A stretch of DNA of 64,000 nt. Source: Pseudonocardiaceae bacterium (lineage in GTDB: Bacteria; Actinomycetota; Actinomycetes; Mycobacteriales; Pseudonocardiaceae). Shown in pieces: positions 644 through 64,000 of the stretch; the stretch's first letter is position 1; the number at the start of each line of letters is the position of its first letter. A model generated the notes under the pieces. It was not told the DNA's origin. It searched no databases and saw nothing but the letters and a program-made list of their open reading frames with translations. Where the stretch lies: contig JBDTAX010000045.1 of assembly GCA_039924425.1 (NCBI GenBank), positions 5,064 through 69,063 of the forward strand, in the 5' to 3' direction. Both the position numbers and the translations under genes were made by a program.

Positions 644-678
644 AAGTGAGGCGAGCTCATCAGGGGGAGGCAAGCACG

Positions 679-2592
679 GTGAGCGTTGCGGCCCAGACGG
701 ATCCGTCCTGTTCTCTACGGCCCGCTTGGGCCGTGCGCCAAGCGCGAGCGGCGGCGCTGGGCAAGCTGTGGATCGCGCTGTCGCGGGAGCGGATCGAGGG
801 TCTCGTCCCGAGCGCCAGCGCCGGCCGCGCGCTGCTCCTGCTCTCCGACGGCAGCCGGCTGTCCGCCCCACCCGCGATCGCTGACGCCTTCGCCGAGCAC
901 CCGGCTGGCCTGACCGTCGCCCTGTATCCAACCACCCCGCATCCGGCGCCGCCGCAGCTGATCGACCACCCGGTCGCGCTGCTCAGCGCGGTCCTGGCGG
1001 CCCGGCCCCACGGTGGCGACACTGGCGACACCGACCGGTGGTGCCAACTGTCCGCCGAGCTCGATGACAGCGTCGCCAACCACGCGCTGGCGCTCGTCGG
1101 CGAGTCCCGGCGGCGGGAACGACTGGGTGCTGACTATGCCCCCAGGGACAACTCGCTGCGCTGGGCGGCGCGCCGCGCCGCCGCCGACCCAGGTTTCAGC
1201 CCACTCGCCCTGTTCGAACAGGCCGTCGTCGATGGGCATCCGCTGCACCCGTGCGCGCGGGTGCGCGGCGGGATGACCGTGGCGGAGCTGTTCGCCTACG
1301 CGCCGGAGTTAGCCGACGAGGTCGACGTCCGGATCGTCGCCATCGCCAGGTCGTCCTTCACCCAGGCAGCGTTCGCGCAGGTGTCATCCAAACGGCGCGG
1401 GATGACCGAGCTGCTGCGCCGCTGGCACCCGGCGGTCGCGCGGGCCGCCGACGCGCACCTGCGCGGCCTTCGGCGGGATCCGGCCGACTACGAGTTGCTA
1501 CCGGTCCACCCGTGGCAGCTAAGCCGCACGGTGCTCGACCACACGGTGCTCGACCGCTATGGCGACGCGCTCGCCGAAGGGCGCGTCATCGTCATTACCC
1601 GAGCGGGCATCCGCGCTCGGCCGCTGCTGTCGCTGCGCACCCTCGCCCCCGCGACGAACCGGCGGGCAGCTCACCTCAAGACCGCGGTCGACATCCGGCT
1701 GACCACCGCGATCCGCGTCGTGTCGCCCGCAACCGCGCACAACGGCCCGGTGGTGTCCGCGCTGCTGACCGAGATCGGCCGGCGCGAGCACGGCTTCGGC
1801 GGGCGGTTCGTCAGTCTCGCCGAGTTGGCCAGCGGGAGCTACCGGCCAGCGCCGGGTGAACCCCTCGACGGCGCGGCCAGTCTCGCCGCGATCGCCCGGG
1901 AGTCCCCGGAGCGGCACGTCGGCGACGGCGAGCTCGCGCTTCCGGTCGCCGCGCTGGCCGCCCGCTCGCCGCGCTGCGGCCGGCCGATGTTTGGCGAAGT
2001 GCTCGATGAACTGGCGTCGGCGCACCAACGCGCACGCTCCGACACCGCCGAGCGCTTCCTCGCCAGTTACTGCGACTGCGCGCTGCCCGCACTGTTCACC
2101 TTGTTGTCCCGCTGGGGGGTCGCGCTGGAGCCACACGGGCAGAACGCGGTCGTGGTGCTGCGGGACGGCCTGCCGGTACGGCTGCTCTACCGCGACTTCG
2201 GCGGCATCCGGGTCAGCGCGGCGCGCCTGGCGCGCGGCGGCCTGCGCCCACCGGCCCTGCTCGGCGCACTGGCGACCGAGGACGAAGACCAGCTCCGGGC
2301 CGCCTTGTTCTTCCCCTTGGTCGTCACCAACCTCAGCCAGGTCGTCGCCGCGCTCGCCAGGGTGAGCCAGACCGATGGCGAACGCTTGTGGCGGCTGGTT
2401 GCCCGGTGCTGCCGATCGGCCTACGCGACGCTCACCGCGGACCCCGCCATCGCACGGCAAGCCGGCCGAGACGAGGCCGCCCTGTTCGGCCCCACCCTCC
2501 CCGCCAAGTCCATGTTGCGGGTTCAGATGGCCGCCGACCCGCATGTCCCCCAGTGGGTGGCGGTACCCAATCCGCTGGTGGCAGCCGAATGA
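679..2592 (+). CDS. IucA/IucC-family NIS siderophore synthetase (1 of 2)
   Basis: ORF 646..2592. Likely start is GTG 679, 9 nt after GGGGGAGG (663-670). Family hallmarks are DGHPLHPCARVRGGM and LEPHGQNAVVVLRDGLPVRLLYRDFGGIRV. The stop overlaps the next start (ATGA at 2589-2592). Confidence 0.9.
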   Translation: MSVAAQTDPSCSLRPAWAVRQARAAALGKLWIALSRERIEGLVPSASAGRALLLLSDGSRLSAPPAIADAFAEHPAGLTVALYPTTPHPAPPQLIDHPVALLSAVLAARPHGGDTGDTDRWCQLSAELDDSVANHALALVGESRRRERLGADYAPRDNSLRWAARRAAADPGFSPLALFEQAVVDGHPLHPCARVRGGMTVAELFAYAPELADEVDVRIVAIARSSFTQAAFAQVSSKRRGMTELLRRWHPAVARAADAHLRGLRRDPADYELLPVHPWQLSRTVLDHTVLDRYGDALAEGRVIVITRAGIRARPLLSLRTLAPATNRRAAHLKTAVDIRLTTAIRVVSPATAHNGPVVSALLTEIGRREHGFGGRFVSLAELASGSYRPAPGEPLDGAASLAAIARESPERHVGDGELALPVAALAARSPRCGRPMFGEVLDELASAHQRARSDTAERFLASYCDCALPALFTLLSRWGVALEPHGQNAVVVLRDGLPVRLLYRDFGGIRVSAARLARGGLRPPALLGALATEDEDQLRAALFFPLVVTNLSQVVAALARVSQTDGERLWRLVARCCRSAYATLTADPAIARQAGRDEAALFGPTLPAKSMLRVQMAADPHVPQWVAVPNPLVAAE

Positions 2593-4607
2593 GCAGCTAC
2601 GGCATCATCCCAGAACATCCGCAACTCCACACGATCGAGGAGCTGCGGATGTATGAGACGCTGGCGGCGACCGCGCCGCGGTACGCCAGCGCGTTCCTCA
2701 AGCACCTGCCCAGGGCGCGGAGCGTGGTTTTGCGCCGGCTGCTCGCGGCCCTGTGGCGAGAGGACGTTGGCGGGATCCGGACAGCCAGCCGCCGTCTCGA
2801 CGCCCACCCGGGCCACCGCGCGGACTTGCTGGCGCTGGCGTCACTGCTGGGCGGTGTTCAGGCCGGTGGCTGGCACGCCCACGAGCTGGACGCCGCGACG
2901 GTGCTGGCTTTCCCGATCCGCGCCGAACACGCCTTCGACAACATCACGCTGGGCCACCCGGTGCTGTGCCTGCGGGACGGCGAGACGACCGTGATCGCCG
3001 CACCGCACGATCTCGTCGAGCTGCTGGCCGGCCGCGCTCCCGCCCCGGTTTGGTGGTCGTTCGCCACCGAGCTCGTGGACGCCGTGACCAACCTCGCCCT
3101 GGCCTACGCCCGAGCCGAGGAGCAGCGGCTGGCCCTACTCCGGCGCGACGCGCCGGACACGGCGGGTCGCGCGCGGATGCTCGGCGAGCGGGAGACGCCC
3201 GGAGAGGTGCTGGTGTTCTTCGAGCGACTCAACACCGAGGGGCACAACCTGCACCCGTGCGGGCGCGGCCGGTTGGGGATGTCACCAGCCGCCGTGCTGC
3301 GCCACGACCTGGAGTCCGACACGCCCACCGATTTGATCATGGTGGGCGTCCGCCGTGAGCGCGTCGAGTCCACACCCGATGCGCGCGGCCGCGACATCGG
3401 GCAGCTGCTGTGCGCCGAGTACCCGAGACTCGCCACCGCCATCGGTGCACAGCTCGACCCCACCGGTTATGTGTTCCTGCCCGTGCACGCCTGGCAGCTC
3501 GAGCAGGTCGTCGTCCCGCTGTTCGCCGAGGAGATCGCGGTGGGCACGGTGGTTCCCGTGCCCACCGCCCGGCTGGCTGGGGTGCCGACGTCCAGCCTGC
3601 GGACGTTGCTCACCGAGCGCTCCCCCGCGGGCCGGCGCCTGCTCGTCAAGACCGCGCTCGACACGCTGATCGGCTCGACCCAGCGGTCCATCTCCGCGCA
3701 CACGACGAACAACGGCCCGGTGTACAGCCGGCTGCTCCAGCGGGCCATTGCCCGTGAGCCGGTGCTGGCCGAGCGGATCGTCCTGCTCGAGGAGCTCACT
3801 GGGGCCAGTTACCTGCCGCCGGCCCACGCTCCGGATCCCGACGGCCGCTCCCGCGCGCTATCCGCGCTCGTCCGCCGCGACATCAGCGACTACCTGCACC
3901 CCGACGAGCTGCCGGTGCCCGGCTGCGCGCTGCCCGCCCGCGCGCCGCTGACGGAGTCCAGCGTTCTAGTCGAGCTCGTCACCCGCTACGGCACGACACG
4001 CGGCGAGCCAGACCTGGGCACGGCCGGGCTGGGCTTCGCGCAGGAGTACGCCGCGCTGCTGCTGCCGGTGAGCGTGATTCTGATGACCAAATACGGCATC
4101 GCGCTGGAGGCCCACCTGCAGAACTGCATCGTCACCTTCGTCGACGCCGTGCCCACCCGGTTGGTGTTGCGGGACTGGGGCGGGATGCGAATCTACCCGC
4201 CGCGGCTGCGCCGGCAGGGGCTGCCCTTCACCCCCCGGCCGGGAGCGGTCACGGTGACCGACGACGTGCACGTGATGCGGGCCAAGATGCTGTACACCGT
4301 GCTGTCGAACCACCTCGGGGAGATCGTGGCCCACCTGGTCGCGCGGTGCGGCGTCGACCCGCACGCGGCGTGGCGGCGCGTGCGGGCGATCCTGGAGGAG
4401 CTCCTCACCGGCTTGGACGCCGATCCGGCGCTGCGCGAGGACGTCGCCGCTGATCGCGCCGCGCTGTTCGCGCCGACGGTGCCCGTCAAGGCGTTCGCCC
4501 GAATGCGGCTGGATCCAGCCGGCGGCGACCAGTACGCGCAGGTGCGCAACCCGCTGCACGAGCACGCGTGGGCACCATGTCTTGCGCTGAGCACGCGGCG
4601 GCGTTGA
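2589..4607 (+). CDS. IucA/IucC-family NIS siderophore synthetase (2 of 2)
   Basis: In-frame ATG at 2589 within ORF 2388..4607, translationally coupled to the upstream gene. Motifs are NTEGHNLHPCGRGRLGM and LEAHLQNCIVTFVDAVPTRLVLRDWGGMRI. The upstream 67 codons are Arg/Pro-rich shadow sequence overlapping the previous gene. Confidence 0.9.
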   Translation: MSSYGIIPEHPQLHTIEELRMYETLAATAPRYASAFLKHLPRARSVVLRRLLAALWREDVGGIRTASRRLDAHPGHRADLLALASLLGGVQAGGWHAHELDAATVLAFPIRAEHAFDNITLGHPVLCLRDGETTVIAAPHDLVELLAGRAPAPVWWSFATELVDAVTNLALAYARAEEQRLALLRRDAPDTAGRARMLGERETPGEVLVFFERLNTEGHNLHPCGRGRLGMSPAAVLRHDLESDTPTDLIMVGVRRERVESTPDARGRDIGQLLCAEYPRLATAIGAQLDPTGYVFLPVHAWQLEQVVVPLFAEEIAVGTVVPVPTARLAGVPTSSLRTLLTERSPAGRRLLVKTALDTLIGSTQRSISAHTTNNGPVYSRLLQRAIAREPVLAERIVLLEELTGASYLPPAHAPDPDGRSRALSALVRRDISDYLHPDELPVPGCALPARAPLTESSVLVELVTRYGTTRGEPDLGTAGLGFAQEYAALLLPVSVILMTKYGIALEAHLQNCIVTFVDAVPTRLVLRDWGGMRIYPPRLRRQGLPFTPRPGAVTVTDDVHVMRAKMLYTVLSNHLGEIVAHLVARCGVDPHAAWRRVRAILEELLTGLDADPALREDVAADRAALFAPTVPVKAFARMRLDPAGGDQYAQVRNPLHEHAWAPCLALSTRRR

Positions 4608-5974
4608 CCGCCCAAGCTTTGCGACCGCGAGGGCCCGCCTGGGACCGGGTGCGCGAGGTGCTGCGCGGGCAGGCAGCCGGCGAGCAGCCGGTGTGCGCGT
4701 ACGTCTACGACCTCGATGCGCTCCTCGAGCGGGCCGAGGCGGTCCGCGTAGCGCTGCCGGGGCGGTGCGAGCTGTACTACGCGGTCAAGGCCAACAGTCA
4801 TCCCGCGGTGCTGAGCACGCTGGCGAAGCACGTCACGGGGTTCGAGGTGGCCTCGCTGGGCGAGATCGACAAGGCGCTCGCCGCGGGCGCGTCGCGGCTG
4901 GCGTTCAGCGGCCCGGCCAAGACCGACGCGGAGATCGCCGGCGCGCTGCGGGCCGGCCTGGGCCTGCTCAACGTGGAGAGCCTGCACGAGCTGCGCCGGG
5001 TGGGACTGATCGGGGCGCGGCTGGGTGTCCAGGTGCCGGTTGCGCTGCGAGTGAACCGGCGCTCCAGCGGCCTGGCGGGCGAGCTGCGGCGGATGGCCGG
5101 AACCGCCACCCAGTTCGGGATCGACGAGACCCTGCTAACGCAGGCGGTGGAGCTGGCCCGCTCACTGGCGGCAGCGGTGCGGCTGCGCGGTTTTCACCTG
5201 CACGCGGCCTCGAACAACCTCGACGCGGCCGCGCACGCCCGCTTCGTGGCCGACAGCGTGGCATGGTGCGTCCAGCAGGCGGCCCGACACCACATCGACC
5301 TGGACGTCATCGACGTCGGCGGCGGCATCGGCGTGCCCTACACCGGTGGTGCGGGCTTCGACCTGCCCCGCTTCGCCGCCGGGCTCAGCGCCGTGATGGA
5401 CCAGCTACCTCCCGGCGTGCGGTTGATCTTCGAGCTGGGTCGGTTCCTGGTGGCCGAGGCTGGTTGGTACGCCGCCGAGGTGCTCGACCTCAAGTACACC
5501 CACGGCCGTCATTTCGCGGTGCTGCGCGGCGGGACCCACCACTTCCGGCTGCCGGCCGCCTGGGGATACAGTCACCCGTTCGCGGTGCTACCGATCGAGA
5601 CGTGGCGCTACCCGTTCGTCCGGCCGGAGATACGCGCGGTGTGTGTCGACGTCGCCGGTGAGCTGTGCACCCCCCGGGACGTGCTCGCCCGGGGAGTCTG
5701 GGTCGAGCGGCTGCGCGTCGGTGACATTGTGGTGTTCCCGCTGGCTGGGGCATACGGCTGGGAGATCTCCCACCACGACTTCCTCAGCCATCCCCACCCC
5801 ACCCAACTCGTCCTGGCGCCGGCGTTACGAGCGCCCCACGCTCGCCCCGAAGTCAAAAACGATCCTGAAACGACCCGTGGGACGGGAGTGACTGCTGAGC
5901 TTTCTGGGAGCCTTGCACTACGGGAGCAGCGATCACCCCACGCTACCCGCCGACTTTCTCTAAAGAGTGAATAG
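4568..5974 (+). CDS. PLP-dependent fold-type III decarboxylase (Orn/DAP/Arg decarboxylase family; SbnH/PvsE-like by context)
   Basis: YAVKANSHPAV contains the PLP-binding Lys motif. HLHAASN, IDVGGGIGVPY, AGELCTPRDVL and AGAYGWE are also present. An alternative start ATG lies at 4577. The last ~50 codons look non-conserved, and the stop (TAG 5972-5974) lies inside the first tandem-repeat unit. Confidence 0.85.
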   Translation: MGTMSCAEHAAALTAQALRPRGPAWDRVREVLRGQAAGEQPVCAYVYDLDALLERAEAVRVALPGRCELYYAVKANSHPAVLSTLAKHVTGFEVASLGEIDKALAAGASRLAFSGPAKTDAEIAGALRAGLGLLNVESLHELRRVGLIGARLGVQVPVALRVNRRSSGLAGELRRMAGTATQFGIDETLLTQAVELARSLAAAVRLRGFHLHAASNNLDAAAHARFVADSVAWCVQQAARHHIDLDVIDVGGGIGVPYTGGAGFDLPRFAAGLSAVMDQLPPGVRLIFELGRFLVAEAGWYAAEVLDLKYTHGRHFAVLRGGTHHFRLPAAWGYSHPFAVLPIETWRYPFVRPEIRAVCVDVAGELCTPRDVLARGVWVERLRVGDIVVFPLAGAYGWEISHHDFLSHPHPTQLVLAPALRAPHARPEVKNDPETTRGTGVTAELSGSLALREQRSPHATRRLSLKSE

Positions 5975-6177
5975 TCAACATTGTTGGAGACGCTGGCCAA
6001 TGGTCCGAAATTTCGTTCAACCTGTTCACTCTCTGAATACAAATGATCGCCCCATGTCATCGGCCAACTTGCTCTAACGAGTGAATAGTCAACATTGTTG
6101 GAGATACGGGGCAATGGTCCGATATTCGGTTTGATCGGTTCACTCTCCGAGCACGAATAGTCGCCACGTGTTACCTG
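5957..6177. repeat. Two tandem imperfect direct repeats of about 115 bp, each with an internal 8-bp inverted repeat
   Basis: Unit 1 runs from about 5957 to 6071 and unit 2 from about 6072 to 6177. The shared core is GAGTGAATAGTCAACATTGTTGGAGA...GGCCAATGGTCCGA.ATTTCG.TT.A.C.GTTCACTCTC. AGAGTGAA and TTCACTCT arms lie about 60 nt apart in each unit. The tract is visibly lower in G+C than its flanks. Confidence 0.85.
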
Positions 6178-6308: not shown

Positions 6309-6784
6309 ATGTTTAGCTTCGCTAGTCTTTTTTCTGCCATCACAGGTCTCCTCGGCGGGACGAGTGGCCTCACCAGTCTCGCCAGTACCGGGCTGAGTCT
6401 TGCCACCAGCGCGTTGAGCACTGCCACCGCCGCGTTGGGTTTGGGCACCAGTGCTCTTAGCGACCGCCGGCTCAAGTCCGATATTGTGGCGGTGGGTTGG
6501 AGTCGATGAACGACACCGGACCGGTCAACGGTTGCGAAGTTCTTGCCAAGCTCGATGCGTTGCCAGTGGCGACGTGGCGTTACCGGTGGGAGGCCACCGG
6601 TGTGCGCCATCTGGGCCCGATGGCCCAGGACTGGCATGCCGCATTCGGTTTAGGAAAGGGCGATACCACCATCCCGATGGTGGATTCCCACGGTGTGCTG
6701 GTGGTTGCGATACAGGCTCTACACCGTCAGCTGATCGAGCTGCGCGCCGAGGTTGACCAGATACATCAGCAGTTGGCTGACTGA
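6309..6784 (+). pseudogene. Uncharged Gly/Ser/Thr/Leu-rich N-terminal peptide joined to a peptidase-S74 intramolecular-chaperone autoprocessing domain; frame interrupted near 6490-6510
   Basis: ORF 6309..6509 encodes 50 uncharged residues followed by S-D-R-R-L-K-S-D-I, the S74 Ser/Lys dyad motif with 5-residue spacing. It stops after 66 aa. ORF 6497..6784, in a different frame, encodes the rest of an S74-like domain (LAKLDALPVATWRYRW, HLGPMAQDW, VLVVAIQALHRQLIELRAEV). Together they look like one gene split by a 1-nt frame change. Confidence 0.65.
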
Positions 6785-6805
6785 CTTCTCAGCTCGCCAC
6801 TGACC

Positions 6806-6846
6806 GCTCGGTTCGCCCGGCACGTTGCTCGCCGGGCGAACCGAGC
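6806..6846 (+). terminator. Hairpin between the S74 gene and the permease gene
   Basis: Perfect 16-bp arms GCTCGGTTCGCCCGGC (6806-6821) and GCCGGGCGAACCGAGC (6831-6846) with a 9-nt loop. There is no U-tract. Confidence 0.45.
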
Positions 6847-6952
6847 GCGCCCGCATACGGCACACGGCAGCGATCAAAGAATTGTGATGGCATTGCGATG
6901 ACAATGAGAAAATTCACTGGACACCTGCGCGGAATTGAGAACGGGTCGGCAC

Positions 6953-8194
6953 ATGAAATTACGAGAGGCGGTGCTCATCGCGCTACGCGCGGTGCGCGCC
7001 CACCGGCTGCGCTCCGCGCTGACCATGCTCGGCCTCATCATCGGAATCTCGGCGGTGATCCTGCTGGTCGCCATCGGCGACGGGGTGCAGAAATCGGTCG
7101 ATGCGCGCATTGAGCCACTGGCCGATCTGATCACTATCGTGGCCACGACCGGGGACCTCCCCGGCGGCCCCGCCCCGAAAAATCTGACCGATGCCGATGT
7201 CGAGGCATTGCGAAAAGCACCGGACGTCGTCGCCGTCACCCCGGTGGTTACCGGCCCATCCCTGATTGGAACCGATGCCGCCCAGTCGACCCTCCCCTCA
7301 CGGGTAACCGTGGTCGGCTCCACTGACCACTGGTTCGAAGTGGCTGACCGGGATATTCAGACTGGATCCTTCTTTGACCAGGCCCAGGTTCGCTCCGCCG
7401 CGAGAGTGGTGGTGCTGGGGCCCACCGCGGTGACCAACCTGTTCGGCGGCGACTCCACTACCGCCCTGGGCAGCACCGTCCGGATCAACCGCCAGACCTT
7501 CACCGTCATCGGGGTGATGCAGACCGTCGGCCTGCCAGGCGACAACATCGTGGTCATGCCGCTGAGCACCGCACGCAGCTATGTCTTCGGTCACGGCGAC
7601 ATCGTCAACGAGGTCACTGCGCAAGCAACTCGCTCGGCCGCTGTGCCCGCCGCCGAAGAACAGGTCACCAACATCCTCGACAACCGACACCGCATCAGAA
7701 ACCCAGCATCCCGAGATTTCGAAGTCCAGACCCTGACAACCGCCATCTCCAGGTTCAACCAGATCCTGCAGATCCTCACCTTGTTCACCGCCGCTGTCGC
7801 CACGGTCTCCCTGGTCGTCGGCTCGATCGGCGTCCTGAACATCATGCTGGTCTCAGTCACCGAACGAACCCGAGAGATCGGGATCCGCAAAGCGATCGGC
7901 GCCACCAAGCGCGCCATCCTCGAACAGTTCCTCATCGAATCCATCGTCCTGGCCAGCCTCGGCGGGCTCATCGGCATTGGCGTCGGAATCGGACTGTCCC
8001 TGCTCAGCGGCGTCATCGCGGCCGCCTTCGCGAGCCACCTCGGCCCCGTCCTCGCCGGGTTCACCCCCGTCGTGAGCGTCCTGCCCGTGGTGGTGTCCTT
8101 CACGATCAGCCTCGCGATCGGGCTCATCGCCGGCGGCTACCCGGCTTATCGCGCCGCCCGGTTGCGCCCGGTGGAAGCCCTCAGATACGAGTAA
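6953..8194 (+). CDS. MacB/FtsX-type ABC transporter permease (no adjacent ATPase gene)
   Basis: In-frame ATG at 6953 (MKLREAVLIALRAV). N-terminal TM (LRSALTMLGLIIGISAVILLVAIG), a ~250-aa extracytoplasmic domain, and a C-terminal FtsX region (GVLNIMLVSVTERTREIGIRKAIGA plus 3 TM segments). The downstream neighbour is convergent rarA. Confidence 0.9.
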   Translation: MKLREAVLIALRAVRAHRLRSALTMLGLIIGISAVILLVAIGDGVQKSVDARIEPLADLITIVATTGDLPGGPAPKNLTDADVEALRKAPDVVAVTPVVTGPSLIGTDAAQSTLPSRVTVVGSTDHWFEVADRDIQTGSFFDQAQVRSAARVVVLGPTAVTNLFGGDSTTALGSTVRINRQTFTVIGVMQTVGLPGDNIVVMPLSTARSYVFGHGDIVNEVTAQATRSAAVPAAEEQVTNILDNRHRIRNPASRDFEVQTLTTAISRFNQILQILTLFTAAVATVSLVVGSIGVLNIMLVSVTERTREIGIRKAIGATKRAILEQFLIESIVLASLGGLIGIGVGIGLSLLSGVIAAAFASHLGPVLAGFTPVVSVLPVVVSFTISLAIGLIAGGYPAYRAARLRPVEALRYE

Positions 8195-60527: not shown

Positions 60528-62288
60528 ATGGCGCACTCCGTGGCGATGCCAGCGCTCGGCGAAAGTGTCACCGAGGGAACGGTGACGCGCTGGCTCAAGC
60601 GGGAGGGTGACACCGTCGAGGTCGACGAACCACTGGTCGAGGTGTCCACCGACAAGGTCGACACCGAGATCCCCTCCCCCGCGGCCGGCGTGCTGCAGCG
60701 GATCGTGGTGGCCGAAGACCAGACCGTCGCGGTCGGCGCCGAGCTCGCGGTGATCGGTGACGCCAATGACCGCACCGCGCCAGCGGAGCCTCCGCCAGCG
60801 AAGCCCCAGCCAGTGGCGCCTCAACCGGTGGAGCCCCAGTGGGTGGAGCCCCAGCGCGTGGAGCCCACCCCACGGCCGGCCGCCCCATCGGCACCGCGCG
60901 CCGGGGGCTCGGGGACACCCGTAGTGATGCCAGCACTAGGTGAGAGCGTCACGGAGGGAACAGTGACGCGGTGGCTCAAGCAGGTCGGTGACACCGTCGC
61001 CGTGGACGAGCCGCTCGTCGAGGTGTCCACCGACAAGGTCGACACCGAGATCCCCTCCCCGGTGGCCGGCACCGTGCTGGAGATCGCCGTCGCCCAGGAC
61101 GAGACCGCTGCGGTCGGCGCCACGCTGGCCACCGTCGGTGACCGCGACCGGGCAACGACAGAGGCCGCCCCGGAACGGCCCGAGCCACCCGCCGAGCCGG
61201 AGCGGGCCGCCGAGCCCGAGCAACCCGCCGAGCGTGGCTCGGCATCCGTGTTCGCTGGACCCGACGCGGCGGCCGGCGGCGCGCCGTACGTGACACCCCT
61301 GGTGCGCAAGCTCGCGGCCGAGCACGGCATCGACCTGTCGATCGTGCAAGGCACCGGGGTTGGCGGCCGGATCCGCAAGCAGGACGTGCTCGCCGCCGTC
61401 GAAGCGCCCGAACCAGAGCCGGCTCAACCAGCGGCCGCCGCAGCGCCGACGCCGCCAGCGACCCCTGTGGCGCCAGCCACCCCCGCGCCGTCAGCCCCCC
61501 CTGGGGCGCCGGTGCCGTCGCCAACCACCGCCGCTCCGCGCGCGGCCCAGTCACCGTCCGCCGCCGAGCCGCGCGGCAGGACCGAGAAGATGTCCCGGAT
61601 GCGCAGCGTCATCGCCAAGCGGATGGTCGAGTCGCTCCAGATCTCCGCGCAGCTCACCACCGTGGTGGAGGCCGACATCACCCGGCTCGCGCGGCTGCGG
61701 GATCGGGCCAAGCGGGACTTCGAGGCCCGCGAAGGCGTCAAGCTGTCGTTCCTGCCGTTCTTCGCGCACGCCACCGTGGAGGCGCTCAAGCAGCACCCGA
61801 AGGTAAACGCCTCGATCGACACCGACCGGGGTGAGGTCACCTACCACGGCGCGGAGCACCTGGGCATCGCCGTGGACACCGAGCGGGGCCTGCTGGTTCC
61901 GGTGATCCACGACGCGGGTGACCTCAACATCGCCGGTCTGGCCCGGCGGATCGCCGACCTCGCCGAGCGGACCAGGACTAACAAGATCACCCCGGACGAG
62001 ATGAGCGGCGGCACGTTCACCCTCAGCAACACCGGCTCACGCGGGGCCCTGTTCGATACTCCGATCATCCTGCAGCCGCAGGTCGGGATCCTCGGCACCG
62101 GCACCGTGGTCAAGCGACCGGTGGTGACCTCCGGCGAGGACGGCGACGCCGTCGCGATCCGCTCAATCATCTACCTGGCGCTGTCCTACGACCACCGGCT
62201 GGTGGACGGCGCCGACGCGGCGCGCTTCCTCAACACCGTCGCGGCGCGCCTCACCGACGCCGTGTTCGAGCGCGACCTCGGACTGTAA
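60528..62288 (+). CDS. sucB: Dihydrolipoamide acyl(succinyl)transferase E2 with two lipoyl domains
   Basis: Two lipoyl domains, each with [13 protein letters not shown]. Pro/Ala-rich linkers, a peripheral-subunit-binding domain ([18 protein letters not shown]), and a catalytic domain with DHRLVDG. Confidence 0.92.
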
Positions 62289-62316: not shown

Positions 62317-62500
62317 ATCTCCCGCGCGTAACGGAACATTGACGCCCGCTTGACGCGGTCCCAGCGCCACGGAAAAAACTGTTTCGCTCTTCGATCACGC
62401 TGCCGATTTACTTGCGCTCAGTTTTTATTCCACCACGTCGCGCTCTTTTCTCACCGCTGGCTTCCTCCCGTTTACGGAGAGTCAATTCTTGAACCCGTTG

Positions 62501-62529
62501 TTGACAACAGCTTCGGCGTGCGCTTAACT
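62501..62529 (+). promoter_or_regulatory. Near-consensus promoter candidate for the small peptide gene
   Basis: TTGACA (62501-62506), a 17-nt spacer, then TTAACT (62524-62529), in an AT-richer intergenic tract. It implies a leader of about 240 nt. Confidence 0.45.
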
Positions 62530-62776
62530 CTCCAATGCACCAAGAACCACCCGAAATCGGCACTACGGAAATGTTGGGGAAATGTCGCGTCGCTAACCCG
62601 ATAGTTTCTTCTCCCCTCCCGTTTATCACCACGGGACGCAACGCCACGACCACGCCAGCAAATTCGTTGAGTCATCATCTAAAAAAACGTTCCAACGGAG
62701 GAGATTTCGGGTGGCGAAATACAACCACCTCAAATTCGAGGTGGAGTCAACAACAACAGATTCAGAAGGAGATATC

Positions 62777-62896
62777 ATGGGACTCGCGGGAATCTTTACT
62801 GGCATCAGTACTGTTGTGGGTGGCGTCACCGGTATTCTGGGCGGCGCGGTCAGCTTGGTGAATGGGCTTCTGGGTGCCGTTCTGGGCGCCCTGTAG
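62777..62896 (+). CDS. 39-aa completely uncharged Gly-rich hydrophobic peptide
   Basis: ATG 62777 lies 5 nt after AAGGAG. Product is MGLAGIFTGISTVVGGVTGILGGAVSLVNGLLGAVLGAL. Composition and the VTGILGG/ITGLLGG segment resemble the N-terminus of the 6309 gene. A terminator-like hairpin and a paralogous permease follow. Confidence 0.55.
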   Translation: MGLAGIFTGISTVVGGVTGILGGAVSLVNGLLGAVLGAL

Positions 62897-62924
62897 TCGC
62901 AGCCTTGAGGTGATGTGACGCGAT

Positions 62925-62988
62925 GGCCCCCTCCTGCGACGGAGATGTCCCCGAAACATTTCTCGCAGTAGGAGGGGCCGTTGTTTTC
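62925..62988 (+). terminator. Intrinsic-terminator-like hairpin between the peptide gene and the permease gene
   Basis: Long imperfect stem: GGCCCCCTCCTGCGA (62925-62939) pairs with TCGCAGTAGGAGGGGCC (62963-62979), with inner GAGATGT/ACATTTC pairing. The U-rich GTTGTTTTCC follows. Confidence 0.55.
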
Positions 62989-63038
62989 CAGCGAAAACTC
63001 TTGCGCTCGACGCCGGGGAATCAAGCGAAGGACGGTAC

Positions 63039-64000
63039 ATGAGTTTGCGGGAAGCGTTTCTCATCGCGCTGCGCGGGGTGCGTGCGCACCGGCTGCGCTC
63101 CGCGCTGACCATGCTCGGCCTCATCATCGGAATCTCTGCGGTGATCTTCCTGGTCGCCATCGGCGACGGGGTGCAGAAATCGATCGACGCGCGCATCGAA
63201 CCGCTGGCCAATCTGATCACCGTCGTGGCCTCGACCGGGGACCTCCCCGGCGGCCCGGCCCCGAAAAACCTGATCGATGCCGACGTCTCGGCATTGCAGA
63301 AGGCACCCGACGTCATGGCCGTCACCCCGGTAGTCGCCGGCGCGTCATTGATCAAGGCTGACGTCGCCCAGTCCATCGCCGCGTCCCGGACGACCGTCGT
63401 CGGCTCCACCGAAGACTGGTTCGATGTGAACAACCGCGACATCGCGGCCGGGTCGTTCTTTGACTCCGACCAGGTCAGCTCCGCCGCCAGAGTCGTCGTG
63501 CTGGGGCCCACCCCGGTGGCCAACCTGTTTGGTGGCAACACCGCCGCCGCCATGGGCAGCACTGTCCAGATCAACCGGCAGAACTTCACAGTCGTCGGGG
63601 TGATGCAGTCTGTTGGCATGCCGGGTGACGACATGGTGGTCATGCCGCTGAAAACCGCACGCAACTATGTCTTCGGTCTCGGCGACGTTGTCAACGAGGC
63701 CACAGTGCAAGCCGCCTCGGTGGCCGCCGTACCGGCGGCGACAAACGAGGTGACCAACATTCTGGACACCCGGCACAACATCAGCACTCCCGCAGCCCGG
63801 GATTTCCAGGTCCAGTCTCTGACTTCCAAGATCACTCAGTTCAACCAGATTCTTCGTATTCTTACCTTGTTCACCGCCGCTGTCGCCGCGATCTCCTTGA
63901 TGGTCGGTGCGGTTGGCGTCTTGAACATCATGCTGGTCTCAGTGACGGAGCGAACCCGGGAAATCGGCATCCGCAAAGCGATCGGGGCCACCAGCCGCGC
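63039..64000 (+). CDS. MacB/FtsX-type ABC transporter permease, paralog of 6953..8194 (3' end beyond window)
   Basis: My translation from ATG 63039 is MSLREAFLIALRGVRAHRLRSALTMLGLIIGISAVIFLVAIGDGVQKS...GVLNIMLVSVTERTREIGIRKAIGATSR. It is colinear with the first permease, roughly 70% amino-acid identity by eye. There is no stop before the window end, so it is absent from the ORF track. Confidence 0.9.
   Translation, partial: MSLREAFLIALRGVRAHRLRSALTMLGLIIGISAVIFLVAIGDGVQKSIDARIEPLANLITVVASTGDLPGGPAPKNLIDADVSALQKAPDVMAVTPVVAGASLIKADVAQSIAASRTTVVGSTEDWFDVNNRDIAAGSFFDSDQVSSAARVVVLGPTPVANLFGGNTAAAMGSTVQINRQNFTVVGVMQSVGMPGDDMVVMPLKTARNYVFGLGDVVNEATVQAASVAAVPAATNEVTNILDTRHNISTPAARDFQVQSLTSKITQFNQILRILTLFTAAVAAISLMVGAVGVLNIMLVSVTERTREIGIRKAIGATSR

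What the first reader, a model, noticed from the sequence alone, without database searches (positions are those of the whole stretch)
62330..63038. Stand-alone 39-aa uncharged Gly-rich peptide gene with strong expression signals and a leaky-terminator layout ahead of the paralogous permease
The ORF from ATG 62777 (AAGGAG RBS at ideal spacing) encodes MGLAGIFTGISTVVGGVTGILGGAVSLVNGLLGAVLGAL. It has no charged residue and several small-xxx-small (GxxxG-like) spacings.

It sits in an AT-richer 490-bp intergenic tract. A near-consensus TTGACA-17-TTAACT promoter candidate implies a leader of about 240 nt. An intrinsic-terminator-like hairpin with a U-rich tail precedes the permease. That layout is classic for a highly expressed structural peptide with read-through into transport or immunity genes.

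The leader also contains two overlapping alternative hairpins sharing CCACC (62710-62729 versus 62725-62744). These are weak.
Basis: partly seen in the sequence, partly recalled or inferred. Interest (0 to 1): 0.7.

Follow-up and report, generated by a model that had tools for sequence, protein, structure and literature searches.

The report
Tail-less hydrophobic peptide gene beside permease
A 39-codon gene for a completely uncharged, glycine-rich peptide sits in front of a membrane permease; it appears to be a ready-made version of peptides that neighbouring loci make with a self-cutting tail borrowed from phage tail fibres, which would be a previously undescribed way of maturing small bacterial peptides.

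Summary
The ORF is real as a sequence feature: ATG 62777 to TAG 62896, AAGGAG five bases upstream, 39 residues, no charged residue. Shuffles never reach this length (0 of 2000). A long hairpin with a U-run follows it.

The promoter call is weaker. The -35 is perfect, but the -10 matches only 3 of 6 positions.

No sequence homologue exists outside the same species. The orthologous sucB–permease locus of a related species (L011) lacks the ORF.

The window's own paralogous permease (6953-8194) is preceded by a related peptide gene. That gene encodes an uncharged Gly/Ser/Leu-rich core followed by a 16-residue tail, SDRRLKSDIVAVGWSR. An overlapping gene B supplies the rest of a Peptidase_S74 self-cleaving domain. 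This split arrangement recurs in Pseudonocardiaceae, Streptomyces and Thermomonospora.

The 39-mer resembles these cores (z 3.7-4.9). It ends exactly where they would be cut. Its permease belongs to the one clade that is linked to such peptides.

Best reading: a leaderless, tail-less member of this peptide class, handled by the MacB-type permease. Function and expression are untested.

The parts
62777..62896 (+). 39-codon ORF (with stop) for an uncharged Gly-rich hydrophobic peptide, MGLAGIFTGISTVVGGVTGILGGAVSLVNGLLGAVLGAL
   Evidence: Shuffle test 0 of 2000. AF2 predicts a single helix, residues 2-38, pLDDT 94. Exact copies occur on two same-species contigs.
62766..62771 (+). Shine-Dalgarno AAGGAG, 5 nt before ATG 62777
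   Evidence: read directly from the sequence.
62697..62713 (+). Alternative start: GGAGGAG (62697-62703) followed by an in-frame GTG at 62711, which would give a 61-aa product with a charged 22-residue extension
   Evidence: The GTG lies in the weak stem 62710-62729.
62476..62534 (+). Conserved upstream block GGAGAGTCAATT..GTTGTTGACA-N17-TTAACTCTCC, which holds the promoter-like TTGACA (62501-62506) and TTAACT (62524-62529)
   Evidence: The block is conserved in the orthologous locus L011, where it reads TTGACA-18-TAGTAT and is present twice. The promoter scan did not call it.
62725..62744 (.). Perfect 7-bp hairpin CCACCTC-AAATTC-GAGGTGG in the leader. On the minus strand it is followed by a T-rich run and so looks like a terminator.
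62920..62990 (+). Long imperfect hairpin plus U-run after the ORF (terminator-like)
62625..63008 (+). Approximate extent of the ~390-nt segment (leader hairpins, ORF, terminator) that is absent from the orthologous locus L011
   Evidence: alignment. The boundaries are approximate.
63039..64000 (+). MacB_PCD/FtsX permease, cut off by the end of the window
   Evidence: PF12704 E 4e-41; PF02687..
6309..6509 (+). Paralogous locus, gene A: a 50-residue uncharged core followed by the S74 tail SDRRLKSDIVAVGWSR
   Evidence: Relatives P0121 and P0122.
6506..6784 (+). Paralogous locus, gene B: the remainder of the Peptidase_S74 domain. Its start overlaps the gene A stop (ATGA).
   Evidence: PF13884; B alone covers profile positions 11-53, A+B covers 1-53. 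(259 homologues).
6953..8194 (+). Paralogous MacB-type permease

Best explanation
The 39-codon ORF is a genuine small gene. It encodes a leaderless, tail-less member of a class of uncharged Gly/Ser/Leu-rich hydrophobic peptides found in Pseudonocardiaceae.

In sister loci, including window 6309-8194, such peptides are made as precursors. The core is followed by a 16-residue tail that carries the Ser-x4-Lys dyad of the Peptidase_S74 (intramolecular chaperone) domain. A small partner protein, gene B, supplies the rest of that domain in trans. By analogy with MyRF and endoNF, the chain is cut just before the Ser.

The 39-mer stops exactly at that point (…GAL*), so it corresponds to the mature product and needs no processing.

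The peptide is predicted to be one long hydrophobic helix that partitions into the membrane. The adjacent orphan MacB-type permease would extract or expel it, either for export or for self-protection. Permeases of this kind act on substrates in the outer leaflet or the periplasmic side.

Transcription would come from the conserved block upstream and be partly stopped at the hairpin.

Shown: the ORF, its Shine-Dalgarno sequence and the hairpin; the split S74 arrangement in relatives; the similarity to their cores; the association with one permease clade.

Inferred: cleavage of the relatives' precursors, membrane insertion, the role of the permease, and read-through of the hairpin.
For: 1. The ORF is far beyond chance and has a well-placed AAGGAG.

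2. Window gene A plus gene B together match PF13884 over profile positions 1-53 (E 5e-9). Gene B alone matches only positions 11-53.

3. The same A/B split recurs in many loci:
   - with a 4-nt ATGA/GTGA overlap between A and B in L001, L007, L092 and L116;
   - without an overlap in Streptomyces L004-6 (2-nt gap) and Thermomonospora L100 (95-nt gap);
   - also in L012/L093 (A and B in different frames, overlapping as called in L093), L097 and L099.

4. MyRF is cut between P586 and the catalytic S587. The S587/K592 dyad equals endoNF S911/K916, and the strand bearing the site comes from a neighbouring subunit (PMC8326128). A split is therefore structurally natural, and the predicted cores end at ...AL|S...FL|S and ...LL|S.

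5. The 39-mer aligns with the cores of L001, L007 and L012 at z 4.9, 3.7 and 4.2 against composition-preserving shuffles. Bona fide cores align with each other no better than this. These cores were also its best non-self tblastn hits in 660 kb of loci.

6. GC3 is 0.64, close to gene A of the paralogous locus (0.65) and unlike sucB (0.88).

7. The permease tree places the 39-mer's permease in the clade that holds all A/B-linked permeases: 5 of 8 against 0 of 18, p = 8.5e-4.

8. The A-B-permease order is kept at 74% identity in gene A (L116).

9. Other cargo types of the A/B module also sit next to transporters, for example radical SAM + A + B + MFS.
Against: - No homologue of the 39-mer was found in 5.8 billion proteins or 1.84 billion representatives. 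Exact copies occur only on contigs that are 99.7-99.8% identical to the window, so purifying selection cannot be measured.
- The orthologous locus L011 lacks the ORF.
- There is no detectable DNA homology between the two window loci upstream of the permease. There is no remnant of the tail or of gene B after the stop codon.
- Similarity among short low-complexity peptides could be convergent.
- No ATPase partner is known.
- The -10 element is poor.
- The true start could be GTG 62711.
- Cleavage by the split S74 has not been demonstrated anywhere.
Confidence: 0.5

Rival explanations
1. The ORF is a non-functional relic or a lineage-specific accident. A ~390-nt segment inserted into, or left behind in, the permease leader happens to keep an open frame. 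It might be a decaying fragment of a former peptide locus with no present role.
For: The segment is absent from the orthologous locus L011, which keeps the promoter block and the permease. There are no homologues beyond the same species. Decayed or interrupted copies of such peptide genes exist elsewhere: L001 5220-5500 on the minus strand, L094 and L095.
Against: The frame is intact, with ATG and AAGGAG at ideal spacing. It contains no charged codon in 39, which no shuffle reached. A terminator-like hairpin is placed just behind it. No trace of a lost tail or gene B is present.
Confidence: 0.2
2. The peptide is a small membrane subunit or modulator of the adjacent permease, in the manner of AcrZ, KdpF or MgtS. 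It would be neither an exported nor a toxic product.
For: It is a single long hydrophobic helix. It is co-oriented with the permease and lies 142 nt upstream of it. The permease is an orphan without an adjacent ATPase. The clade-specific association holds.
Against: Related permeases L011, L013 and L014 have no such partner. Related cores are hypervariable while their tail is conserved, which is unlike a subunit that co-evolves with a 74-84% conserved partner. L007 has the peptide module but no permease.
Confidence: 0.13
3. The ORF is a cis-acting leader peptide. Its translation would control formation of the downstream terminator and so set permease expression.
For: The ORF lies between the conserved promoter block and the permease and is followed by a terminator-like hairpin. 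The leader has alternative hairpins.
Against: The stop codon lies 24 nt before the terminator stem, and no antiterminator pairing that overlaps the ORF is evident. The orthologue does without it. The peptide resembles a class of peptides that carry a processing tail, which points to a peptide product. There is no Rfam match.
Confidence: 0.08
4. The ORF is a type I toxin-like small membrane toxin, repressed by an antisense RNA that covers its ribosome-binding site.
For: It is a small hydrophobic ORF. The only terminator-like site called in the region is on the minus strand at 62744-62725, just upstream of the Shine-Dalgarno sequence. A weak TTCACC-17-CAGAAT lies on the minus strand inside the ORF (read by eye; 8 of 12 matches).
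Against: One terminator-like site is what chance gives (expected 1.2). The minus-strand promoter match is below the scan threshold. No charged C-terminus is present, unlike many type I toxins. There is no Rfam hit.
Confidence: 0.05
5. Translation starts at GTG 62711. The product would be a 61-residue precursor with a 22-residue acidic or charged N-terminal leader that is removed on export, as in class II bacteriocins or RiPPs.
For: A strong GGAGGAG lies 7 nt before GTG 62711 and the frame is open to the same stop. The layout of a charged leader plus a hydrophobic core is typical of exported peptides.
Against: Related cores start directly at their Met. In-frame stops lie 9-12 nt upstream in window 6309 and in L007. 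The GTG is buried in a stem. No double-glycine or other known cleavage motif is seen. No homologue of the extension was found.
Confidence: 0.12

Closest known systems
Peptidase S74 / intramolecular chaperone autoprocessing (ICA, CIMCD) domain of phage endosialidases and tail fibres, and of MyRF (Pfam PF13884)
   Same: The paralogous peptide at 6309-6784 carries the Ser-x4-Lys motif (SDRRLK) and, together with gene B, matches the Pfam profile. Phage proteins in IMG/VR have the same domain, often preceded by a Gly-rich uncharged stretch.
   Different: The 39-mer has no such tail and no gene B. In the actinomycete relatives the domain is split between two genes. The cargo is a 24-100-residue peptide rather than a trimeric fibre or a transcription factor.
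Leaderless class II bacteriocins (such as aureocin A53 and lacticin Q; named from my own knowledge)
   Same: Small ribosomal peptides made without a leader or modification, helical, membrane-active, and encoded beside ABC-type transport or immunity genes.
   Different: Those peptides are strongly cationic and Trp/Lys-rich, whereas the 39-mer has no charge at all. There is no sequence or profile similarity. Only a permease lies nearby, with no ATPase. Activity is untested.
Glycine-zipper membrane peptides (the GxxxGxxxG motif, for example the CdzC/CdzD bacteriocins of Caulobacter; named from my own knowledge)
   Same: Three (G/A/S)xxxGxxx(G/A/S) motifs and a very hydrophobic helix.
   Different: The motif count is no more than the composition predicts. 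There is no Pfam glycine-zipper hit. No type I secretion genes are present.
MacB / LolCDE-type (type VII) ABC permeases that act on peptides or lipoproteins
   Same: The downstream gene has the MacB periplasmic core and FtsX domains.
   Different: It is an orphan: no ATPase lies beside it, its paralogue or its relatives. Its substrate is unknown.
RiPP precursors with conserved recognition sequences and hypervariable cores
   Same: In the A/B relatives the tail is 69-94% conserved while the cores are barely alignable. Some loci add a radical SAM enzyme and transporters.
   Different: The conserved part is C-terminal and belongs to a self-cleaving phage domain rather than a leader bound by a RiPP recognition element. 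The 39-mer has neither a leader nor a follower.

Membership tests
Peptidase S74 / ICA domain (PF13884) | Catalytic Ser-x4-Lys dyad at the cleavage site | tested here: not met
   The 39-mer ends at ...GAL*. No S-x4-K tail or remnant follows it in any frame. The motif is present in the paralogue at 6459-6476 as SDRRLK.
Peptidase S74 / ICA domain (PF13884) | Match to the Pfam profile | tested here: not met
   There is no Pfam hit for the 39-mer or the 61-mer at E <= 1. Paralogue A+B gives E 5e-9 over profile positions 1-53 of 58.
Peptidase S74 / ICA domain (PF13884) | Trimerising C-terminal coiled coil and autocleavage | not testable with these tools
   Gene B has a confidently predicted C-terminal helix, residues 59-91. 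The overall model is poor (pLDDT 66.7) and Foldseek found nothing.
Leaderless class II bacteriocins | Small unmodified peptide translated without a leader | tested here: inconclusive
   ATG 62777 with AAGGAG gives a leaderless 39-mer. GTG 62711, with its own Shine-Dalgarno sequence, would add a 22-residue extension.
Leaderless class II bacteriocins | Cationic, amphipathic sequence; homology to a known family | tested here: not met
   The peptide has zero charged residues. There is no Pfam or NCBIfam match.
Leaderless class II bacteriocins | Antimicrobial activity and a dedicated immunity or export system | not testable with these tools
   Only an orphan MacB-type permease is adjacent.
Glycine-zipper membrane peptides | GxxxGxxxG-type motif above expectation, or a profile match | tested here: inconclusive
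   Three zipper motifs are present, but small-xxx-small pairs number 9 against 6.6 ± 1.5 in shuffles (p = 0.10). There is no Pfam hit.
Type I toxin-antitoxin | Antisense or overlapping small RNA with its own promoter and terminator | tested here: inconclusive
   A minus-strand terminator-like hairpin lies at 62744-62725, at the frequency chance predicts. Only an 8-of-12 promoter-like match is seen on the minus strand. There is no Rfam family.
Leader-peptide transcription attenuator | ORF overlapping alternative terminator/antiterminator pairings, conserved with the regulated gene | tested here: not met
   The stop codon is 24 nt before the terminator stem and no competing pairing is seen. The orthologue L011 lacks the ORF and the hairpin.
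MacB-type (type VII) ABC transporter | MacB periplasmic core and FtsX transmembrane domains | tested here: met
   PF12704 E 4e-41 and PF02687 E 1e-7 on the 320 residues in the window.
MacB-type (type VII) ABC transporter | Cognate ATPase, fused or adjacent | tested here: not met
   No ABC signature occurs in the window. No ATPase is adjacent in the paralogue or in relatives. The sequence beyond 64000 was not available.

The most novel reading that the evidence does not exclude
The 39-mer may be the naturally 'pre-cut' form of an undescribed class of actinomycete peptides. Their usual precursors would be matured by a phage-derived Ser-Lys autoprotease split between two genes: the cleavage strand forms a 16-residue follower on the peptide, and the body of the domain is a separate small protein.

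This module has been attached to very different cargos. These include uncharged glycine-rich helices linked to MacB-type permeases, radical-SAM-associated cores, signal-peptide-bearing peptides and 100-residue domains in Streptomyces. It would be a new general route of peptide maturation and release.
Probability: 0.3. Interest if true: 0.8.

Novelty: new variant of a known kind. Interest (0 to 1): 0.6.

Why it matters
If the reading holds, three things follow.

First, actinomycetes, the main source of peptide natural products, would have a widespread and unannotated family of tiny precursor genes. These genes are mostly missed by gene callers. Their partner proteins are labelled only 'tail fiber domain-containing protein'.

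Second, a phage tail-fibre self-cleaving chaperone would have been split and reused as a trans-acting device for removing a follower peptide. No such mechanism turned up in the paper library searched.

Third, the window offers a natural comparison within one genome. One locus makes the peptide with a tail and a partner protein. The other makes a tail-less peptide. Each sits beside its own copy of the same orphan permease. Both the need for processing and the role of the permease therefore become directly testable.

If instead the ORF is a relic, the finding is ordinary. The split S74 family stands on its own in either case.

Tried and rejected
- Homologue searches for the 39-mer or the 61-mer found nothing. 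These were the word-indexed search, exhaustive phmmer against 1.84 billion representatives, and tblastn against phage and plasmid collections. Pfam, NCBIfam and PADLOC gave no hit, and Rfam gave none on the spacer.
- I tested whether the bases after the stop codon are a decayed S74 tail or gene B. By eye, 'SQP*GDVTRW' looks a little like SDRRLKSDIVAVGW. Local DNA alignment to four tail/gene-B sequences scored no better than shuffles, so I rejected this.
- I tested for DNA homology between the two window loci upstream of the permeases. None exists until 9 nt before the ATG.
- I tested whether the upstream block at 62476-62534 is the same unit as the tandem repeats at 5950-6172. The similarity is marginal: z 2.9 to one copy and not significant to the other. 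I left this open.
- SNPs among the three same-species copies do not help, because none falls in the ORF.
- The structure of gene B came out at low confidence, and Foldseek against the PDB gave nothing. A PDB sequence search also gave nothing.
- I considered an anti-phage defence reading, with gene B acting as a poison subunit for phage fibres. There is no PADLOC support, and I did not pursue it.
- The sucB protein could not be used to reach sequence beyond 64000, because it is not on record.
Full report
**Setting.** The window comes from a high-GC actinomycete with GC about 0.70. Its closest relatives in public data are Pseudonocardiales/Pseudonocardiaceae metagenome bins. The finding lies in the 750-bp spacer between the stop codon of the sucB-like gene (60528-62288) and a permease gene that starts at ATG 63039 and runs off the window. 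GC falls to 0.49-0.56 in this spacer. The permease has the MacB periplasmic core and FtsX domains.

**The observation.**
- The ORF is exactly as described: ATG 62777 to TAG 62896, 39 residues, 11 of them Gly, none charged, GRAVY 1.68.
- AAGGAG lies at 62766-62771, five bases before the ATG.
- In 2000 dinucleotide shuffles of the spacer, the longest fully uncharged start-to-stop ORF had 28 codons.
- In the whole window it is the only complete ORF of this kind.
- After the stop codon a 65-nt imperfect hairpin (62920-62984) is followed by a U-run. The region's MFE is -56.8 kcal/mol and z is -2.4.
- The leader hairpin 62725-62744 is real.

Three points are weaker or were missed.
- The promoter candidate has a perfect -35 (TTGACA, 62501-62506). 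Its -10, TTAACT, matches at 3 of 6 positions and lacks the conserved A2. The scan called no promoter.
- The small-xxx-small spacings are what the composition predicts (p = 0.10).
- GTG 62711 is preceded by its own strong GGAGGAG (62697-62703). A 61-residue product with a charged 22-residue extension cannot be excluded.

**Conservation.**
- The exact peptide is called on two Logan contigs. These are 99.7-99.8% identical to the window and have no SNP in the ORF, so they say nothing about selection.
- No other homologue was found by the indexed search, by exhaustive phmmer against 1.84 billion representatives, or in phage and plasmid collections.
- The orthologous locus of a related species is L011, with sucB, a spacer and a permease that is 80-81% identical. 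It keeps an upstream block, GGAG(A/G)GTCAATT…GTTGTTGACA, with a better -10 (TTGACA-18-TAGTAT). It also keeps about 80 nt of leader and the last 25 nt before the permease ATG.
- L011 lacks a segment of roughly 390 nt (about 62625-63008) that in the window holds the leader hairpins, the ORF and the terminator.
- The ORF is therefore not a constant companion of this permease.

**The clue in the same window.**
- A paralogous permease lies at 6953-8194, 76.6% identical. It is preceded by ORF 6309-6509, which encodes MFSFASLFSAITGLLGGTSGLTSLASTGLSLATSALSTATAALGLGTSAL-SDRRLKSDIVAVGWSR.
- A second ORF, 6506-6784, starts at an ATG that overlaps the first ORF's TGA.
- The second ORF alone matches Pfam Peptidase_S74 ('chaperone of endosialidase') over profile positions 11-53. 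The two ORFs joined match positions 1-53 with E 5e-9.
- The domain is therefore divided. The first gene (A) ends with the strand that carries the Ser-x4-Lys motif. The second gene (B) supplies the rest.

This is not a sequencing error, because the same division recurs in other loci.
- With a 4-nt ATGA or GTGA overlap between A and B: L001/L097, L007/L008, L092, L099 and L116.
- In L012/L093, A and B also lie in different frames and overlap as called in L093.
- With a 2-nt gap in Streptomyces (L004-6), and with a 95-nt gap in Thermomonospora (L100).
- Sources.

Gene B has at least 259 homologues. They are annotated at best as 'tail fiber domain-containing protein' and occur in Pseudonocardiaceae, Streptomyces, Kitasatospora and others.

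In phage contigs the homologous domain is intact and sits at the end of 250-2000-residue tail-fibre or virion proteins. Several of these have a Gly-rich uncharged stretch immediately before SDRxxK.

**What the tail implies.** In MyRF the chain is cut between P586 and the catalytic S587. S587 and K592 correspond to S911 and K916 of the phage endosialidase. The strand bearing the site comes from a neighbouring subunit and threads through a ring formed by the rest of the domain (PMC8326128). A gene A tail that docks into gene B and is cut just before its Ser is therefore a reasonable inference, but it has not been demonstrated. It predicts mature cores ending …SAL (window), …SFL (L001), …GLL (L007) and …SIT (L012).

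**Relation of the 39-mer to these cores.**
- The cores are 33-50 residues long, start at their Met with no leader, are uncharged, and are rich in Gly/Ser/Leu/Thr/Phe/Val.
- They stay uncharged as they diverge (P0121 and P0122).
- The 39-mer has the same character and ends …GAL followed by a stop, exactly where the others have the cleavage-site Ser.
- Smith-Waterman scores against L001, L007 and L012 exceed composition-preserving shuffles at z 4.9, 3.7 and 4.2, with 1-2 of 2000 shuffles as good. This is at least as strong as the similarity among the bona fide cores themselves.
- In a tblastn of 660 kb of collected loci, these cores were its best non-self hits.
- Its GC3 (0.64) matches gene A of the paralogous locus (0.65) rather than the host genes (0.83-0.88).
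- Against common descent: there is no DNA similarity between the two loci upstream of the permeases, and no vestige of a tail or gene B after the stop. The relation could be old or convergent.

**Link to the permease.**
- A tree of the first 320 residues shows one tight clade at 74-84% identity. It contains every peptide-linked permease: the window paralogue, L001, L012 and L116 with A/B, and the window copy with the 39-mer. It also contains three without a peptide (L011, L013, L014).
- The sister clade, at 50-60% identity, has no such ORF upstream in 18 loci. Fisher p = 8.5e-4, uncorrected for phylogeny.
- The order A-B-hairpin-permease is retained at 74% identity in gene A (L116).
- One hydrophobic-core locus (L007) has no permease.
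- None of these permeases has an adjacent ATPase, and the window has no ABC signature.
- Other cargo types of the A/B module sit beside other transporters, for example radical SAM + A + B + MFS with an ABC-2 pair. This fits exported peptides in general.

**Mechanism proposed.** The 39-mer is a leaderless, tail-less member of this peptide class. AlphaFold predicts a single helix, residues 2-38, with pLDDT 94 from a single sequence, so this carries limited weight. The helix is too hydrophobic to stay soluble and should enter the membrane. MacB-type permeases act on substrates at the outer face of the membrane (established knowledge of MacB and LolCDE). The adjacent permease is therefore most simply an extractor, exporter or self-protection device for the peptide, energised by an ATPase encoded elsewhere. 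Transcription would start at the conserved block and be partly stopped at the hairpin. The 55 nt between the hairpin and the permease ATG show no promoter, so the permease probably depends on read-through. I put this at about 0.5.

**Rivals.**
- A relic or accidental ORF (0.2).
- A membrane subunit of the permease (0.13).
- A 61-residue precursor starting at GTG 62711 (0.12; this is compatible with the main reading apart from the start site).
- A leader-peptide attenuator (0.08).
- A type I toxin with an antisense RNA (0.05). The only support is a minus-strand terminator-like hairpin at chance frequency and an 8-of-12 promoter match.

**Comparison with known systems.**
- The 39-mer is not a member of Peptidase S74. 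It has no dyad and no profile match.
- It is not a member of any bacteriocin, glycine-zipper or defence family in Pfam, NCBIfam or PADLOC.
- It works most like a leaderless membrane-active peptide with a dedicated permease, but it differs in having no charge and no ATPase.
- Five searches of the paper library found no description of a split S74 domain on small peptides. That library is incomplete, so this is not proof of novelty.

**Verdict.** The sequence observation is sound. The 'structural peptide with read-through into a transporter' reading is partly supported. The main value of the finding is that it leads to a recurrent, apparently undescribed peptide-maturation module, of which the 39-mer looks like a naturally tail-less variant. 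I rate its interest at 0.6 and classify it as a new variant of a known kind.

Noticed in passing
window 6309-6784; also L001 4626-5146, L007 4852-5360, L012 3117-3637, L116 1097-1644, L004 4642-5381, L100 2693-3285: The Peptidase_S74 domain is split between two genes. A small gene ends in S[DN]RxLKxD[IV]xxVxW[SD][RQ]. A partner gene, often overlapping by ATGA/GTGA, supplies the rest. Cargos are very diverse and gene B has at least 259 homologues in actinomycetes.
   Followed up: partly
L092 2693-5684; L099 1717-4698; L095 1499-3068: Radical SAM enzyme + gene A (Cys/Asp-rich core ending ...STT|SDRRLKCD.VAVDWSR) + gene B + MFS transporter, with an ABC-2 pair upstream. This looks like a RiPP-type cluster. 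In L095/L096 gene A is frameshifted.
   Followed up: no
L094 3747-4013: The gene A seen intact in L012/L093 is interrupted here by an insertion of about 105 nt between ...SLLSGL and VSGALGSIT.
   Followed up: no
L001 5220-5500, minus strand: A decayed second A/B copy in inverted orientation. It has a short frameshifted core, the tail NDPRLKHDIVAGYRRNWSR*, a GTGA overlap and a truncated gene B.
   Followed up: no
window 5950-6172; L007 4500-4725: Two tandem units of about 110 bp with inverted arms GAGTGAA...TTCACTC lie upstream of the paralogous peptide gene's promoter-like TTGACG-17-GATAGT. The block at 62476-62534 resembles them only marginally (z 2.9 to one copy, not significant to the other).
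   Followed up: partly
L106, L108, L110, L113 (IMG/VR contigs), just upstream of position 3001: Phage tail-fibre or virion proteins with an intact S74 domain have a Gly-rich uncharged stretch immediately before the SDRxxK site, for example STIGGLAGAFAGGMTGLGAIGVGAKAAT|SDRTLK. This resembles the actinomycete cores.
   Followed up: partly
window 63116 (ends of L009 and L010): Both same-species Logan contigs stop at the same base, where the sequence shared with the paralogous permease (88.8% DNA identity from 63030) begins. This is probably an assembly break at a repeat.
   Followed up: no
window 646-5974: A siderophore-type cluster (two IucA/IucC+FhuF synthetases and a PLP-dependent decarboxylase) lies directly upstream of the paralogous peptide locus, and rarA/mgsA lies downstream. 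Both peptide-permease loci are AT-richer inserts between housekeeping genes.
   Followed up: partly
L100 2693-2905 (Thermomonospora cellulosilytica): Gene A here begins with a Sec-type signal peptide (…AAPAHA|QAPV…) ahead of a 24-residue core and the S74 tail. Gene B has no signal peptide, which raises the question of where cleavage takes place.
   Followed up: no
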